Assembly (NCBI GenBank): GCA_041490525.1
Contig: JBGPTH010000017.1
Coordinates: 52-64,051, forward strand
Reading direction: 5' to 3'
DNA length: 64,000 nucleotides
DNA from: Nitrospiria bacterium
GTDB lineage: Bacteria > Nitrospirota > Nitrospiria > Nitrospirales > NS-4
Under the pieces are notes generated by a model that searched no databases, had not been told where the DNA came from, and saw nothing but the letters and a program-made list of their open reading frames with translations. Positions within the stretch are counted from its first letter, which is position 1; each line of letters opens with the position of its first letter. Shown here piece after piece: positions 2,275 to 21,165 of the stretch. A program made the position numbers and the translations under genes.

Positions 2275-2809
2275 GGGGGAAGGGAACACCGGAATTTCGC
2301 GCCTGTCGATAGGCGAGGATTCGTTCCAGAAATTTCTTTACGGCTTGCGGGTCGTGCAAACGGCTTTCCTCCTCGACCGGAATGAGCGGGAAGTGCGCCA
2401 TGAAGGCGCGCGCGAAGAGGCCGACACCATCTGGTGTCTCCATTCCCTGTGCTGTGAAAAGCGGGACGTGCTCGATACCGCAACTCGGTGAGTCGCTCTT
2501 GAAGACGAAGCCGGAGAGGTTCAGGGTCTCCAGTTCTCGGACCCGTTGCCGTGCGAAGCGGTTCATCGCGTCGGTGTGATCGACTCCTGTGTTGATTGTT
2601 ATGAGGCGCGGCGCGTGGAGATCCCCGGCCAGCCGCATCGGTTCGCGCGGCGTGCCTAGTCCCACCTCGACTTCAGGGCACACCGGAATCCACTCCACGT
2701 GCGGGCCCAGGGCCTCGAGTAGAAACCCGTCGCGCTTGTGCCCGCCGTCATGCCGGACGTTCTCGCCCATCAGGCACCGGCTGATTCCGATGCGAGGAAG
2801 TATGGCCAT
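2243..2809 (-). CDS. DUF523 / thiouracil desulfidase (TudS)-like Fe-S protein
   Basis: Motifs ISRCLMGENVRHDGGH, VCPEVE and KSDSPSCG. Start uncertain (2809 or 2818). The 3' end overlaps the convergent gene. Confidence 0.8.
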   Translation of the reverse strand: MAILPRIGISRCLMGENVRHDGGHKRDGFLLEALGPHVEWIPVCPEVEVGLGTPREPMRLAGDLHAPRLITINTGVDHTDAMNRFARQRVRELETLNLSGFVFKSDSPSCGIEHVPLFTAQGMETPDGVGLFARAFMAHFPLIPVEEESRLHDPQAVKKFLERILAYRQARNSGVPFPPIGRGRESTS

Positions 2810-2874
2810 GTCCGCCAACTTGCCGCAGAAACGTTGGATGTGTCAAGCGCTGCTAACCACGTTGGACCGGATAT

Positions 2875-3135
2875 GAGCGGGTGGCGCCGCATGGGACCCG
2901 GGTGGAGCGGAGGGCGCCTACAGCCGAGTCTGCGGGGCTGCAACGCCGAAGTCACCCGTTGCAATCGAGCGGGTGACACCGCATGGGCGCCCAGATGCAG
3001 CGCGGGGCGTACAGCCGGGTCTGCGGGGCCTCAACGGCGAAACGCCCAGCTGCGATGGGCTTTGCGGGGGCAGGACCCGCTCAAAGAGCAACGGGTTCCC
3101 CGTCGCACGTCAGGGTGGCTCGGCGACAGGACCCG
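2875..3135 (+). repeat. GAGCGGGT-family structured repeat, nested copy A (inner 116-bp unit 2967-3082)
   Basis: Begins GAGCGGGTGGC and ends GCGACAGGACCCG. Strongly similar to 3972-4234 and related to 7001-7116, 8586-8729 and 21061-21165. Confidence 0.9.
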
Positions 3136-3142
3136 TAATGAT

Positions 3143-3913
3143 ATGCTGATCGACAGCCATTGTCATCTCGACGACGCCCGCTACGAGGCCGACCGCGAGG
3201 CGATGATCCAGCGCGCGAGGGACGCCGGGATCGGGCACTTCGTGACGATCGGGTGCGACCTCGACACGAGCCGCGCCGGGGTGGCTCTGGCGCAGCGTCA
3301 TCCCTTCATCTCCGCAACCGTGGGCGTCCATCCGCACGAAGTCAAGCTCATCCAGGACGGCTGGTACGACGACCTGCGCGCGCTGGCGAAATCCGGCCGC
3401 GTGGTGGCCTATGGCGAAATCGGGCTGGACTACCACTACGACCACTCCCCGCGGGACGTGCAGCGTGAGCGTTTCCGCGAGCAGGTGCGTTTGGCCCGCG
3501 AGCTCCGCCTACCCATCGTAATCCACACGCGGGAGGCCCAGGAGGACACGATTGCAATCCTAAAGGAGGAGAAGGGCGGGGAAGCGGGCGGGGTCTTTCA
3601 CTGTTTCTCGGGGGATGCCTGGCTGGCGAAGGACGCGCTGGACCTGGGGTTCTATCTCTCGTTCTCCGGCGTCATCACCTTTCAGAACGCGACGATGCTC
3701 CGCGACATCGTCAAGACGGTGCCGCTGAACCGCATCCTGGTCGAGACCGACGCCCCGTACCTCACCCCTGCCCCCCACCGCGGCAAGCGGAATGAGCCGG
3801 CCTACGTCCGCCATGTCGCCGACAAGATCGCGGAGCTGCATGGAATCAGCGTGCAAGAAGTCGAGGAAGCGACTACTCAGAACACCAGGCGTCTGTTCAG
3901 GATCAGCGGGTAA
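3143..3913 (+). CDS. tatD: TatD-family deoxyribonuclease
   Basis: MLIDSHCHL, GVHPH, GEIGLDY, IHTREA, VFHCFSG, ETDAPYL, RGKRNEPA. The real start is ATG 3143; the longer ORF from 2738 only reads through the repeat. Confidence 0.95.
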   Translation: MLIDSHCHLDDARYEADREAMIQRARDAGIGHFVTIGCDLDTSRAGVALAQRHPFISATVGVHPHEVKLIQDGWYDDLRALAKSGRVVAYGEIGLDYHYDHSPRDVQRERFREQVRLARELRLPIVIHTREAQEDTIAILKEEKGGEAGGVFHCFSGDAWLAKDALDLGFYLSFSGVITFQNATMLRDIVKTVPLNRILVETDAPYLTPAPHRGKRNEPAYVRHVADKIAELHGISVQEVEEATTQNTRRLFRISG

Positions 3914-3971
3914 CTGATAAAGATTAGCGGGTGGCGCCGATGTCGCCGGAGGCGACGGGGTGATATTTCTC

Positions 3972-4234
3972 GAGCGGGTGGCGGCGCGTGGGAACCGGGC
4001 GGAGCGGAGCCCGCTACAGCCGAGTCCGCGTGGCTGCAACGGCGTTTCGACCCGTTGCAATCGAGCGGGTGACACCGCATGGGCGCCCAGATGCAGCGCG
4101 GGGCGTACAGCCGGGTCTGCGGGGCCTCGACGGCGAAACGCCCAGCTGCGCCGGGCTATGCGGGGGCAGGACCCGCTCAAAGAGCAACGGGTTCCCCGTC
4201 GCACGTCCGGGTGACGCGCCGACAGGACCCGCTC
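3972..4234 (+). repeat. GAGCGGGT-family structured repeat, nested copy B (inner unit 4063-4178)
   Basis: Terminal inverted 8-mer GAGCGGGT...ACCCGCTC on both the outer and inner units. A truncated 5' end (AGCGGGTGGCGCCG) also sits at 3926. Confidence 0.9.
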
Positions 4235-4240
4235 CTGGAT

Positions 4241-4759
4241 TCAGAATTTCTTTAACTGGCTAGCTTTCTTCCGTAGCGCCTTCGAAAGTTTCTTGGGATT
4301 GCCTTTCTTCTTCGGATCGCGCCGCGCCTGAACTTCCTCTTCCTCGTCGGCCGCCTGCTTTCTCGCTATGGGCCGAGCCCCCGACGTGTGCAGGCGCGTT
4401 TCGAACTCGCCCGACGTGATGACCGTGCAGCCACGGGCGCGGGCAAAATTCACGACCTCATGATCCGAGGACACCACCGCGGAATCGGAGCCGTACTTTT
4501 CCGCCAGCCGTTTCACGACCGCGTCGGCGGTCTCCCCCTGACGCGAAAATACGACCTCGATCCCCTCGCGCCACTCGGCTCGCTGCACCGGTTGCCCGGA
4601 CCGCCAGCCGTCGAAGACCACCGTGAGCGGGAAGCCCTTGCGGTGCCGGTATCCGGCCAACTGGCGGATCAAGGCCTCCCGCCGGGACTCCACATCGCCG
4701 CCCAAGCCGCCCCGCACCCCTAAGAGGTTATATCCGTCAATGATGAGATGGATCGCCAT
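4241..4759 (-). CDS. YacP/Rae1-like NYN-domain nuclease
   Basis: LIIDGYNLL, VVFDG, VFSRQGETADAVV, VVSSDHEV and a basic C-terminus. Confidence 0.85.
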   Translation of the reverse strand: MAIHLIIDGYNLLGVRGGLGGDVESRREALIRQLAGYRHRKGFPLTVVFDGWRSGQPVQRAEWREGIEVVFSRQGETADAVVKRLAEKYGSDSAVVSSDHEVVNFARARGCTVITSGEFETRLHTSGARPIARKQAADEEEEVQARRDPKKKGNPKKLSKALRKKASQLKKF

Positions 4760-7000: not shown

Positions 7001-7116
7001 GAGCGGGTGGCGGCGAGCGGGACCCTGGCGGAGCGGAGCGCGGTACACCTGAGTCTGCGGGGCCGCGACAGGGAAACCGCGCGAGCACGTCAGGGTGGCT
7101 CGGCGACAGGACCCGC
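7001..7116 (+). repeat. GAGCGGGT-family repeat, simple 116-bp copy C
   Basis: GAGCGGGTGGCGGCGAGCGGGACCCTGGC ... GCACGTCAGGGTGGCTCGGCGACAGGACCCGC. Confidence 0.85.
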
Positions 7117-7129
7117 GTCAACGAATGAC

Positions 7130-7189
7130 GAAAAGGGGACGGGCAACTTTTCTCACCGCAAAGAGAGAAAAGTAGCCAGTCCCCTTTTC
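7130..7189. repeat. 25-bp-arm inverted repeat (GAAAAGGGGAC...GTCCCCTTTTC); possible bidirectional terminator or REP-like palindrome
   Basis: Arms 7130-7154 and 7165-7189 match at 23/25 with a 10-nt loop, between convergent truA and the TPR gene. Confidence 0.75.
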
Positions 7190-7203
7190 TGCACTACCAT
7201 GCT

Positions 7204-7992
7204 CTATGGAGGAGATTCGCGGCTTTTGCTCGTTGACGATAGCGGACGACGTTTGCCATCCAGGATATCCACAACCATCGCTCTAACCGATTCGTACGAA
7301 GGGAAGTTATTAAAATGGGCGAAGGTGGCGTGACCAACACGATCATATCTGTCCAAATGGAATGCCCTAGCATCCTTGGCGATCTCACCCAGCTCACGAG
7401 CAATGTCCGTTGTGGAATCGTAGCTCCCGAGAGAAATAAAGTACTCCTCCTTCCCGGACTCATCTAGTACGGAAAATCGAAGGTAAATTCGTTTAGGACT
7501 CTTCGGCTCGAAGAGTTCAAAAGCTAAGACCTTTCGGTTTCCTGCGTTAAACTGCTCCCGACAGTAGGAGGGCATGGATTCTGCGAGCTTAGCCGGAAGC
7601 GCCTTTCGGAATTCGATGAGGGCAGCGCGCTCCTGGTCGCGTTCCGCGGTGCGGCCGAGCGCCTGATAAGATTGGATGAGTTTAGCGCGGGCGCGCCAAT
7701 CGTCCGGCTTCGCGTTCCTGTAAAGCTTCCACGTTGCGAGCGCCAAAGGATGGTCTCCAATCTCAGCGGAAGCTATCCCGAGATTCCACAAGACGTTCGG
7801 ATTGCTGGGGTATGCTTCCTGTGCCTCCTTCAAAAGCGGAATAGCCTCAGCATAGCGCCCTGCTTCCATCAACTTTACAGCGCGATCGAATGCAGCTTCT
7901 GGAACGGCTTCGGCTCCACACATAAAAGTAATGGTGAACAAGAGCACTAGAGAAATGGAGAGACGGGTATAGATTATCTTGACCAGTGCCAT
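7204..7992 (-). CDS. Secreted TPR-repeat protein
   Basis: Signal peptide ending AEA; TPR-like AGRYAEAIPLLKEAQEAYPSNPNVLWNLGIA. Visibly lower GC than its neighbours. Confidence 0.75.
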   Translation of the reverse strand: MALVKIIYTRLSISLVLLFTITFMCGAEAVPEAAFDRAVKLMEAGRYAEAIPLLKEAQEAYPSNPNVLWNLGIASAEIGDHPLALATWKLYRNAKPDDWRARAKLIQSYQALGRTAERDQERAALIEFRKALPAKLAESMPSYCREQFNAGNRKVLAFELFEPKSPKRIYLRFSVLDESGKEEYFISLGSYDSTTDIARELGEIAKDARAFHLDRYDRVGHATFAHFNNFPSYESVRAMVVDILDGKRRPLSSTSKSRESPP

Positions 7993-8585: not shown

Positions 8586-8729
8586 GCGGGTGGCGACGAG
8601 CGGGACCCTGGCGGAGCGGAGCGCGGTACACTTGAGTCTGCGGGGCTGCGACAGGGAAACCGCGTGAGCTGGTGACCCGTTGCATTGGAAGAGCAACAGG
8701 TGCCCCGGTGGCTCGGCGACAGGACCCGC
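8586..8729 (+). repeat. GAGCGGGT-family repeat, copy D carrying the empty ACCCGTTGC hairpin
   Basis: GCGGGTGGCG ... ACCCGTTGC-ATTGGAAGA-GCAACAGGT ... GCGACAGGACCCGC. Confidence 0.85.
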
Positions 8730-21060: not shown

Positions 21061-21165
21061 GCGGGTCCTGTCGCACGTAGGGGCAGGCCTGCGTGCCTGC
21101 CCGATGATTGGGCAACCACACAGGGTTGCCCCTACAGCCAGGGTCCCGATCGCCGCCACCCGCTC
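21061..21165 (-). repeat. GAGCGGGT-family repeat, copy E, with its centre replaced by a GTAG-REP doublet (21077-21135)
   Basis: Minus strand GAGCGGGTGGCGGCGATCGGGACCCTGGC ... GCGACAGGACCCGC. Internal GTAGGGGCAGGC..GCCTGCCC and inverted GGGCAACC..GGTTGCCCCTAC. Confidence 0.85.

What the first reader, a model, noticed from the sequence alone, without database searches (positions are those of the whole stretch)
2875..4234. Self-nesting structured repeat: a 116-bp unit inserted into a hairpin loop of its own relative
Seen: copies A (2875-3135) and B (3972-4234) are an outer GAGCGGGT...ACCCG(CTC) element holding an inner 116-bp element with the same ends (2967-3082; 4063-4178). The inner unit sits in the loop of the stem ACCCGTTGC-AATC^AAAGA-GCAACGGGT. 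The two inner units differ at only 4 positions, while the outer 5' arms are clearly more diverged. Inference: a non-autonomous mobile family (MITE/REPIN-like) that targets itself, or a modular structured RNA. No cognate transposase lies in the window, and I cannot assign it to a named family.
Basis: partly seen in the sequence, partly recalled or inferred. Interest (0 to 1): 0.7.

Follow-up and report, generated by a model that had tools for sequence, protein, structure and literature searches.

The report
Russian-doll palindromic repeats in Nitrospirales
Two 261-base non-coding repeats flanking a housekeeping gene are nested copies of a lineage-specific family of hairpin-forming intergenic repeats that sit inside one another's loops, a new variant of the known REP/REPIN/MITE kind of small mobile DNA.

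Summary
Copies A (2875-3135) and B (3972-4234) flank tatD. Each is a 112-116-nt long-hairpin unit ("U", subfamily I1) lying in the loop of a 9-bp hairpin "H" (ACCCGTTGC/GCAACGGGT), which lies inside another U (subfamily S).

U has at least 33 full units in 40 intergenic loci of this 2.8-Mb Nitrospirales genome. It occurs in 20 of 20 genomes of the same family and 0 of 20 from three sister families. Neither the finding region nor the whole window matches Rfam. Stems covary strongly.

Intermediate states exist: simple U, U with an empty H, U[H[U]], and three-level nests. One relative has an S unit with an empty H exactly where A and B carry I1. Orthologous intergenic sites differ among genera: absent, present, inverted or nested.

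Best reading (0.6): non-autonomous REP/REPIN-like mobile DNA that lands, without target duplication, in H loops, while H modules land inside U. Composites then spread as units.

The mobilising enzyme is unknown. The genome's single RAYT-like gene is flanked by a different repeat and does not co-vary with U. REPs inserted in target palindromes are in print, so this is a new variant, not a new kind.

The parts
2875..2966 (+). Copy A, outer unit (S-type U), 5' arm: terminal GAGCGGGTG, 5' stem strands, conserved core GTCTGCGGGGC, then the left arm of hairpin H (ACCCGTTGC, 2954-2962) and loop bases AATC
   Evidence: (core 2920-2950 matched by model R1)
2967..3082 (+). Copy A, inner unit (I1-type U); the core unit GCGGGT..ACCCGC is 2969-3080
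   Evidence: (121.5 bits, E 9e-24)
3083..3135 (+). Copy A, outer unit 3' arm: loop bases AAAGA, right arm of H (GCAACGGGT, 3088-3096), 3' stem strands, terminal CAGGACCCG. It ends 7 nt before the tatD start codon.
3143..3913 (+). tatD (TatD-related DNase), the gene flanked by A and B. It is not part of the repeat and is syntenic in relatives.
3925..3971 (+). Remnant 5' end of a U (AGCGGGTGGCGCCG) followed by a small hairpin (GTCGCC-GGA-GGCGAC). It corresponds to the 5' end of the element that occupies this site in relatives.
   Evidence: (repeat D3)
3972..4062 (+). Copy B, outer unit (S-type U) 5' arm with the left arm of H
4063..4178 (+). Copy B, inner unit (I1-type U); core unit 4065-4176
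   Evidence: 119.9 bits
4179..4234 (+). Copy B, outer unit 3' arm with the right arm of H; ends ACCCGCTC. Its 3' end coincides with the 3' end of the element at the same site in relatives.
7001..7116 (+). Simple, uninterrupted S-type U downstream of truA
   Evidence: (7003-7116, 91.1 bits)
8586..8728 (+). S-type U carrying an empty H hairpin (ACCCGTTGC-ATTGGAAGA-GCAACAGGT, 8675-8701) in its 3' half
21061..21165 (-). Element with U-type ends (GAGCGGGTGGCGGCG...GCGACAGGACCCGC) but a different interior (two small hairpins, no core motif)
   Evidence: (20.5 bits, E 0.05)

Best explanation
A and B belong to a lineage-specific superfamily of non-coding, extragenic palindromic repeats built around GGGT/ACCC stems. 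There are two kinds of module. U is a 112-115-nt long imperfect hairpin: GCGGGT..., a conserved apical core GTCTGCGGGGC, then ...CAGGACCCGC. It has several subfamilies (S, I1, I2 and others) and variants that keep the ends but have a different interior. H is a 25-29-nt REP-like hairpin, ACCCGTTGC, a loop of 7-11 nt, then GCAACGGGT. U units lie in the loop of H in one orientation relative to the asymmetric loop and without target-site duplication (shown). H modules lie inside U just 3' of the apical domain (shown). I infer that both arrangements arose by insertion. Repeating the two steps gives the Russian-doll composites U[H[U]] and U[H[U[H[U]]]]. A composite then behaves as a longer family member and is copied as a whole. 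The elements are non-autonomous mobile DNA of the REP/REPIN/MITE kind, mobilised in trans (inferred). The enzyme is not identified. The lack of target duplication, the preference for hairpin loops and the strand-specific tolerance of G.T pairs point to a mechanism acting on folded single-stranded DNA, of the HUH/Y1 type or an unknown one (inferred, weakly). Long persistence in the family and enrichment between convergent genes suggest the host tolerates them or uses them as REP-like 3'-end structures (inferred).
For: Family and structure. All units share length and core position. Model R1 finds 45 matches at E<=1e-3 in the genome, 33 of them above 90 bits, among 150 candidates scored. BLAST merges them into 40 loci totalling 7.6 kb.

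Location. 0 of 40 loci lie inside a called gene. Of the 33 loci with both neighbours called, 13 lie between convergent genes, against 275 of 1636 intergenic regions in the background, by a crude gene caller.

Lineage. The model matches 20 of 20 genomes of the same family (1 to 37 matches each) and 0 of 20 genomes of three sister families (same split by BLAST). H with exact arms occurs in 18 of 20 against 0 of 20, and the reversed control pattern gives 0 everywhere. The I1-specific 38-mer is found only in Nitrospirales/Nitrospirae MAG records (18 stretches), not in viral contigs. Copy A has no match in plasmids.

States of the H site. In this genome 22 H hairpins are empty, allowing at most 1 mismatch per arm. 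Seven hold I1 (arm distance 125-126). Three hold I2 and a fourth a related unit with a GGAGTGGGG start (arm distance 127-128). In the single flank context CTGGTG-H-(G/A)CCCCGG, 5 are empty and 3 are filled, by two other unit types. G007:C316 holds an S-type unit with an empty H (loop AGTCCGAAGA) exactly where A and B hold I1. G010:C344 holds an outer unit whose inner I1 itself carries an empty H. G019:C11 holds a deeper nest with an empty innermost H. Three-level nests occur at C59, C56 and C13:70614.

Gain and loss. The site downstream of truA is occupied by a simple S (window), only a 3'-end remnant (G007), nothing (G012), an S in the opposite orientation (G013) or a nested S[I2] (G001). The site holding the 8586-8728 unit is 40 nt long in G005 against 192 nt here.

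Stand-alone I1 copies lie in unique DNA with varied flanking dinucleotides and no duplication in 10 of the 18 loci inspected from other genomes.

Composites as units. Seven S/other[I1] composites from three genera share the block hL-I1-hR but have outer arms of different sub-types or chimeric arms. V[I1] occurs twice with about 96% identical arms.

Other. Loci are clustered: 14 neighbour pairs within 10 kb against 4.6 expected, reached by 1 of 5000 randomisations. Six of 40 loci lie at contig ends. The principle is in print: REPs inserted within small target palindromes (PMC3733652, passages read) and IS elements that target REPs (PMC1525189, passages read).
Against: No mobilising enzyme was found. 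The genome (99% complete by marker genes) shows no TnpB, IS110 or DDE_Tnp_1 match and only one broken rve gene.

Its single Y1/RAYT-like gene scores 77.4 bits against the NF047646 cut-off of 80. It is preceded by a different repeat and carries no U or H in its flanks. Relatives of it occur in only 9 of 20 family genomes but in 7 of 8 genomes of a sister family that lacks U. Several U-rich genomes (G010, G015, G017) lack it.

No insertion polymorphism within one population was shown. Laying metagenome contigs gave only joints attributable to other copies.

An element has sat at the tatD-downstream site since before these genera split (L077 2287-2420). That is slow turnover.

I1 is 94-98% identical across genera while tatD DNA is 77-85% identical. 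Simple neutral mobile DNA does not explain this.

Strong covariation and the G.U excess on one strand (116 cells against 14 A.C cells; 39 against 14 without the two invariant U.G pairs) would equally fit a selected RNA fold.
Confidence: 0.6

Rival explanations
1. U is mainly a functional structured RNA: a cis-acting element in 5' or 3' untranslated regions, or a multi-copy small RNA. Selection keeps its fold and apical loop. Nesting is modular growth of an RNA architecture (a three-way junction), and DNA-level copying is secondary.
For: 96% of cells are paired against 84% in shuffles, and 19 of 33 pairs show changes on both sides, reached by 0 of 500 shuffles. Slid controls give about 40% paired. 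G.U cells outnumber A.C cells 116 to 14 on the core-forward strand. The apical core is the most conserved part: 42 of its 48 exact genomic occurrences lie in U loci and 4 more in a second hairpin family. I1 is 94-98% identical across genera. A and B are both in the sense orientation of tatD, in its leader and trailer. An RNA-library contig covers a related copy (weak; DNA carry-over is not excluded).
Against: No Rfam match at E<=10 in the region or at gathering score in the window. Orientation is not tied to transcription: among the 11 loci between tandem genes with a defined orientation, 7 are co-oriented and 4 opposed. Against the local majority gene strand, 8 are the same and 18 opposite (crude gene calls, clustered loci). 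Copy number runs from 1 to 37 per genome within the family, and orthologous sites are gained and lost. Variants keep the ends but replace the interior. Both features are typical of mobile DNA. The alignment was fitted to the model and the sequences are related, which inflates the covariation measures.
Confidence: 0.2
2. The H arms are not a target but the true ends of a longer one-piece element: hL + I1 + hR, 143 nt, with a small hairpin at each end as in IS200/IS605-type elements. 'Empty H' is its smallest internal-deletion derivative. This block, not I1 alone, inserts into U at one fixed position.
For: The block including its junction bases is conserved in 7 of 7 composites whose outer arms differ. 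The outer unit without the block has almost the length of an intact S unit (joints). The minimum-energy fold pairs hL with the I1 5' end, which would be a left-end hairpin. H with its flanks resembles a U 3' end joined to a U 5' end (sequence comparison).
Against: I1 also occurs without any H arm: 10 of 18 loci in other genomes, and C11 and C50 here. H occurs alone 22 times in three further flank contexts. At least four different unit types sit in H with different junction bases. U with an empty H at the same position exists.
Confidence: 0.1
3. There is no transposition at all. The mosaics arise by homologous or illegitimate recombination, gene conversion and template switching among pre-existing palindromes. 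Quasi-palindrome correction mimics compensatory change.
For: Outer arms are chimeric in copy A and in L004. Variants of I1 are genome-specific (GCGATGGG here against GCGCTGGG elsewhere), which suggests homogenisation. The loci are clustered.
Against: Near-identical units lie in unrelated unique intergenic DNA in many genomes. Units have precise, constant boundaries. Asymmetric features that palindrome correction should erase are conserved: G against CAGG beside the terminal stem, the apical core, and the U.G pairs.
Confidence: 0.1

Closest known systems
REP sequences inserted within small target palindromes (GTAG/CGTC-tagged REP super-families; Di Nocera et al. 2013, PMC3733652, passages read)
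   Same: Small extragenic palindromic repeats sit in the centre of another, separately repeated palindrome. The target palindrome also exists unoccupied in many copies (the Thermomicrobium roseum case). G-T pairing in stems is noted there as a hint of transcription.
   Different: Here the inserted unit is a 112-nt structured hairpin, not a 20-40-bp REP. No GTAG or CGTC tag sits at the end of H or U. The target hairpin in turn sits inside the inserted family, so nesting is recursive, reaching three levels. In the passages returned by my term search of that paper, 'nested' has 0 occurrences.
REPIN-RAYT systems (Bertels and Rainey; bioRxiv 10.1101/2021.07.10.451892, passages read)
   Same: A hairpin of about 100 bp made of inverted arms. 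Almost exclusively extragenic. Lineage-restricted and apparently vertically persistent. Non-autonomous.
   Different: In REPINs the apex is the less conserved spacer; here it is the most conserved part. The cognate single-copy RAYT flanked by its own REPINs was not found: the only RAYT-like gene is flanked by another repeat and does not co-occur with U.
BIMEs (bacterial interspersed mosaic elements) of enterobacteria
   Same: Mosaic combinations of palindromic units and linker motifs in intergenic regions, often at 3' ends of genes.
   Different: BIMEs are tandem arrays of alternating units (abstracts of PMC2817692 and PMC3333891, search listings). Here the modules are nested inside each other's loops.
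Insertion sequences that target REP hairpins (IS1397, ISKpn1, IS621, ISPpu9/10 and others; Tobes and Pareja 2006, PMC1525189, passages read)
   Same: Mobile DNA that lands at one fixed point of a REP palindrome.
   Different: Those are autonomous IS elements with transposase genes, some with 3-bp duplications. Here the insert is non-coding and belongs to the same repeat superfamily as its target.
Classical bacterial MITEs (Correia/NEMIS, RUP, ERIC, Nezha)
   Same: Size of 100-260 bp, terminal inverted repeats, folding into long hairpins, intergenic position and co-transcription with neighbouring genes.
   Different: No target-site duplication. No parent IS with matching ends was found in the genome. 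A recent review of prokaryotic MITEs contains none of the terms 'nested', 'self-insertion', 'inserted into another', 'within another' or 'hairpin loop' (PMC10969869, term search only).

Membership tests
REP / BIME-type extragenic palindromes | Located outside genes, often at 3' ends | tested here: met
   0 of 40 loci lie inside a called gene. 13 of the 33 loci with both neighbours called lie between convergent genes, against 17% of all intergenic regions (crude gene caller).
REP / BIME-type extragenic palindromes | Short (20-40 bp) G+C-rich stem-loop present in many copies | tested here: inconclusive
   H is 25-29 nt with an invariant 9-bp stem and a variable loop. There are 16 exact copies here and 0-37 per relative, fewer than the more than 100 copies per genome usual for REPs (PMC2817692 abstract). 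U itself is far longer than a REP.
REP super-families of Di Nocera et al. 2013 | GTAG or CGTC tetranucleotide at one end of the palindrome | tested here: not met
   The bases before H are CATG, CATC, GGTG, TTCG or AGTC. U ends are GCGGGT and ACCCGC. CGTC occurs inside the S-type 3' arm, not at an end.
REPIN-RAYT system | Two inverted REPs forming a hairpin of about 100 bp with a less conserved spacer | tested here: not met
   The long hairpin of 112-115 nt is met. But the apical region is the best conserved part (invariant columns).
REPIN-RAYT system | A cognate single-copy RAYT gene flanked by members of the same repeat family | tested here: not met
   There is one Y1_Tnp gene, at C25:28853-29527. 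It scores 77.4 bits on NF047646, below the cut-off of 80. No U or H lies within 1.4 kb. It is preceded by two GGTGTCAG(G/A)CAC half-sites of another repeat. One of the four relatives' loci checked (L092) has a U 1.1 kb upstream.
REPIN-RAYT system | Repeat population depends on presence of the RAYT | tested here: not met
   U is in 20 of 20 family genomes. The Y1 relative is in 9 of 20, and in 7 of 8 genomes of a sister family without U. MAG incompleteness (71-99% complete) weakens this test.
Classical MITE | Target-site duplication flanking terminal inverted repeats | tested here: not met
   The terminal inverted repeat GCGGGT/ACCCGC is present. No direct duplication flanks the 10 stand-alone I1 copies inspected or the S units.
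Classical MITE | A parent insertion sequence with the same ends in the genome or its relatives | tested here: inconclusive
   No intact DDE or DEDD transposase of four Pfam families is in the own genome. IS elements are often lost from MAG assemblies, and relatives were not searched for these families.
IS200/IS605-derived elements (PATE-like) | Sub-terminal hairpins, no inverted terminal repeats or duplication, insertion 3' of a fixed tetra- or pentanucleotide, strand specificity (features recalled, not taken from a call) | tested here: inconclusive
   No duplication. One-strand G.T tolerance. Left flanks are A+T-rich but show no fixed motif. Orientation against local GC skew is 18 opposite and 8 same, which is not the direction I recall for IS608. 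No TnpB.
Any Rfam RNA family | Match to a curated covariance model | tested here: not met
   0 matches at E<=10 in 2500-4600 and 0 at gathering score in the whole window.

The most novel reading that the evidence does not exclude
Hairpin-into-hairpin insertion here is carried out by something not yet described. One option is a family-specific enzyme unrelated to the known REP-associated Y1 transposases. The other is the host's own replication and repair machinery acting on folded single strands. On either option a purely structural 'grammar' (U enters the H loop; H enters U beside its core) would generate recursive palindromes without any dedicated transposase gene. The near-invariant I1 unit and the shared apical motif GTCTGCGGGGC would then be the recognition elements of that system.
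Probability: 0.2. Interest if true: 0.8.

Novelty: new variant of a known kind. Interest (0 to 1): 0.5.

Why it matters
How REP-like repeats spread is still poorly understood outside a few Gammaproteobacteria, where RAYT transposases are implicated. This family offers an unusually legible record of the process in an uncultured soil and sediment lineage of Nitrospirales.

Every intermediate is preserved: simple unit, unit with an empty target hairpin, and filled two- and three-level nests. The insertion points are precise and there is no co-varying RAYT. That makes the question [quoted passage not shown] directly testable with defined oligonucleotides.

Practically, these repeats break assemblies (6 of 40 loci lie at contig ends). 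They sit in the leader and trailer of housekeeping genes such as tatD, where they may shape transcript ends and stability.

Tried and rejected
Rfam: nothing in the region at E<=10 or in the window at gathering score.

Transposase searches in the own genome: TnpB, IS110 and DDE_Tnp_1 gave none, and rve gave one broken copy. Reverse transcriptase is patchy, in 6 of 20 family genomes, so a retro-element origin was dropped.

The Y1/RAYT-like gene was rejected as cognate enzyme.

Vectors: the I1 pattern is not in viral contigs, and copy A has no distant BLAST match in plasmids.

Public reads: 22 sediment DNA runs hold the stretch. I laid two DNA runs and two RNA or possibly-RNA runs. All joints (for example 2950 to 3105/3107) are explained by simple S units at other loci or in other organisms. 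No contig bridged an empty version of this locus. One RNA-library contig covers 2875-3082 with 15 differences and foreign flanks, so it is another copy and no proof of transcription here.

Promoter and terminator scan of 2700-4400: one promoter-like site on the minus strand and no terminator-like site; uninformative.

Integron attC sites, CRISPR and retron ncRNA were considered from the anatomy and dropped without a dedicated test. tatD is syntenic in relatives, there is no spacer array, and reverse transcriptase is patchy.

A GAG target duplication at I1/I2 junctions was considered and dropped, because stand-alone copies lack it.

My first motif scans with loose mismatches were too noisy to use. 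One search was a faulty stub script. Earlier findings of this scan were not open.

Literature: searches for Nitrospira with REP, REPIN/RAYT/nested, bacterial nested MITEs, Nitrospirota MITE and REP/BIME loop insertion found no description of this family or of recursive nesting of REP-like repeats. Subscription-only papers are not covered.
Full report
**Observation.** The window is G000:C17:52-64051 of a 2.82-Mb, 62-contig genome with 62.4% G+C. By the record titles of its closest tatD relatives it belongs to uncultured Nitrospirales. Copies A (2875-3135) and B (3972-4234) flank tatD (3143-3913) and are 91% identical. Each holds a 116-nt inner unit (2967-3082; 4063-4178) between ACCCGTTGC-AATC and AAAGA-GCAACGGGT. 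The inner units differ at 4 of 116 positions, the outer 5' arms at 14 positions plus 1 gap in 92 columns, and the outer 3' arms at 4 of 53.

**The family.** All members share one plan: 5' GCGGGTG, several stem strands, an apical domain with the core GTCTGCGGGGC at about position 50, the complementary strands, and 3' CAGGACCCGC, in 112-115 nt. I call this unit U.
- The inner unit of A and B is subfamily I1. It has 19 near-full copies at 92-100% identity plus 2 partial ones.
- The outer units are subfamily S. Simple, uninterrupted S units lie in the window at 7001-7116 and, with an extra small hairpin, at 8586-8728.
- Other subfamilies (I2, a short I3, X) and variants that keep the ends but have another interior also exist: V, window 21061-21165 and L077.
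- A covariance model built from 23 own copies finds 45 matches at E<=1e-3, 33 of them above 90 bits, among 150 candidates scored. BLAST merges everything into 40 loci of 7.6 kb.
- Rfam has no match.

**Structure.** RNAalifold predicts one long hairpin, and 17 of 33 pairs show compensatory double changes among the 23 own copies. On 51 matches (42 distinct) from this and related genomes:
- 96.0% of cells pair, against 84.2% in shuffles.
- 19 of 33 pairs show changes on both sides.
- 0 of 500 shuffles reach any of the five measures.
- Sliding the partners drops pairing to about 40%.

That alignment was fitted to the model and the sequences are related, so these figures lean towards the structure. 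G.U cells outnumber A.C cells 116 to 14, or 39 to 14 without two invariant U.G pairs in the apical helix. The fold is therefore better on the core-forward strand than on its complement. This fits either an RNA or a strand-specific single-stranded DNA intermediate.

**The second module.** The stem that encloses the inner unit is itself a repeat. I call it H: ACCCGTTGC, a loop of 7-11 nt, then GCAACGGGT. Allowing one mismatch per arm, 22 empty H hairpins lie in this genome in several flank contexts; 16 have exact arms.

**States of the H site.**
- In this genome 7 H hairpins hold I1. Three hold I2 and a fourth a related unit with a GGAGTGGGG start. In the single flank context CTGGTG-H-(G/A)CCCCGG, 5 are empty and 3 are filled, twice by the short I3 unit and once by an S unit.
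- In relatives all intermediate states exist. G007:C316 has an S unit with an empty H (loop AGTCCGAAGA) at exactly the position where A and B carry I1, between ...GACGGCGTTTCG and (A/T)CCCCGTCGCACGTC.... G010:C344 has an outer unit whose inner I1 carries an empty H at the same relative position. G019:C11 has a deeper nest whose innermost H is empty.
- Three-level nests occur here at C59, C56 and C13:70614.

So two complementary placements are seen: U in the H loop, and H inside U just 3' of the apical domain. Repeating them gives the nesting.

**Is it mobile?** Orthologous intergenic regions differ among genera.
- Downstream of truA there is a simple S (window), only a 3'-end remnant (G007), nothing (G012), an S in the opposite orientation next to an inserted toxin-antitoxin pair (G013), or a nested S[I2] (G001).
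- The spacer that holds the 8586-8728 unit is 192 nt here and 40 nt in G005.
- In 10 of the 18 I1 loci inspected from other Nitrospirales MAGs, near-identical I1 units lie alone in unique DNA. They have constant boundaries (GCGGGT...ACCCGC), varied flanking dinucleotides and no target duplication.
- Copy number per genome ranges from 1 to 37 within the family (a lower bound, since only 92 candidates were scored per genome).
- Loci are clustered: 14 neighbour pairs within 10 kb against 4.6 expected, reached by 1 of 5000 randomisations. Six of 40 lie at contig ends.

Against fast turnover, the site downstream of tatD was already occupied before these genera split. L077 (88% TatD identity) and L011 (80%) carry an element with the same ends but another interior at the place of copy B. 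A 5'-end remnant survives at window 3925-3938.

**Composites travel as units.**
- The full 261-nt composite occurs at 87-91% identity in several copies in genomes of another genus.
- Across 7 composites (21 pairs) mean identity is 78% for the 5' arm, 96% for the inner unit and 88% for the 3' arm. The outer arms belong to different sub-types or are chimeric.
- Copy A's arms do not match each other in one helix, whereas B's are fully compensated.
But it reflects the general conservation of I1, and probably exchange of arms, at least as much as recent insertion.

**Distribution.** U is in 20 of 20 genomes of the same family (six genera) and 0 of 20 genomes of three sister families, by both BLAST and the model. 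H shows 18 of 20 against 0 of 20.

**Enzyme.**
- The own genome is 99% complete by marker genes. It has no TnpB, IS110 or DDE_Tnp_1 match, one broken rve gene and one RT.
- Its one Y1 gene is RAYT-like, at 77.4 bits on NF047646 against a cut-off of 80.
- That gene is preceded by half-sites of a different repeat (GGTGTCAGGCAC...GCCAGACACC), which gave 21 motif hits at up to one mismatch, about a dozen of them with the full hairpin context. It has no U or H nearby.
- Its relatives occur in 9 of 20 family genomes and in 7 of 8 genomes of a sister family that lacks U.
- Genomes with 29-31 U matches (G010, G015, G017) lack it.
- It is therefore not supported as the mobiliser. Cross-mobilisation and MAG gaps cannot be excluded.

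**Context and orientation.**
- All 40 loci are intergenic. Convergent intergenic regions are over-represented: 13 of 33 against 17% in the background.
- Divergent regions are not avoided (7 of 33). Copy A lies between the starts of a 2-thiouracil desulfurase gene and tatD.
- Orientation relative to tandem neighbours is 7 same and 4 opposite.
- Relative to local GC skew, and relative to the majority gene strand, it is 8 same and 18 opposite.
- These rest on a crude gene caller and clustered loci, and I treat them as a weak trend only.

**Comparison with what is known.**
- REPs inserted in the centre of small, separately repeated target palindromes have been described (PMC3733652, passages).
- IS elements of five families target REPs (PMC1525189, passages).
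- REPINs are about 100-bp hairpins that depend on a flanking single-copy RAYT (bioRxiv 10.1101/2021.07.10.451892, passages).

The present family works like these but fails defining tests of each: no GTAG or CGTC tag, a conserved rather than variable apex, no cognate RAYT, no target duplication and no parent IS. What is new is the reciprocal, recursive nesting of two module types with all intermediates preserved, in a phylum where my searches found no such repeats in print. I rate it a new variant of a known kind.

**Verdict.** My confidence that these are non-autonomous mobile palindromic DNA elements that insert into hairpin loops is 0.6. A selected RNA fold remains a serious, partly compatible rival (0.2). 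The moving enzyme is the open question.

Noticed in passing
G000:C25:28786-28840 (L001 1380-1460), and about a dozen other places in the genome: A separate hairpin repeat, GGTGTCAGGCAC-ATTTTCTC..GAGAAAAT-GAGCCAGACACC. The motif GGTGTCAGGCAC gave 21 hits at up to 1 mismatch, about a dozen with the full hairpin context. Two half-sites lie directly upstream of the genome's only Y1/RAYT-like gene, so this, not U, looks like that gene's cognate REP family. Copies also lie next to U units (C11:80217, C1:156300), and a relative of it lies at window 7140-7190.
   Followed up: partly
G000, 12 places, for example C7:62198, C14:31119, C10:2694: A 'mini' hairpin family, GTGGGTGCGGGAGGGGC-GTC(T/A)GCGGGGC-CCCCTCCCGC, carries the same apical core motif as U in its loop. 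Of 48 exact occurrences of GTCTGCGGGGC in the genome, 42 are in U loci and 4 in this family, against about 5.6 expected from base composition. The motif itself may be a recognition element.
   Followed up: partly
L156 (G013:C83), between truA and cysE: An antitoxin/toxin-like gene pair sits downstream of truA next to an inverted U. It is followed by a duplicated copy of about 30 nt of the truA 3' end, which looks like the scar of an integration event.
   Followed up: no
window 7204-7992 (-): A TPR-repeat gene with unusually low third-position G+C (0.56 against about 0.8 in its neighbours). It is missing between truA and the next conserved gene in G011 and other relatives, so it is probably a recent acquisition in a variable spot flanked by U units.
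   Followed up: partly
window 3131-3145: The 3' end of copy A (CAGGACCCG) places an AGGA 11 nt upstream of the tatD start codon. Relatives without the element have no obvious Shine-Dalgarno sequence there. The element may supply or alter the ribosome-binding region.
   Followed up: no
G000:C2:100781-101073: The only rve (integrase-core) match in the genome is split over two frames. It is probably a decayed IS3-like transposase.
   Followed up: no
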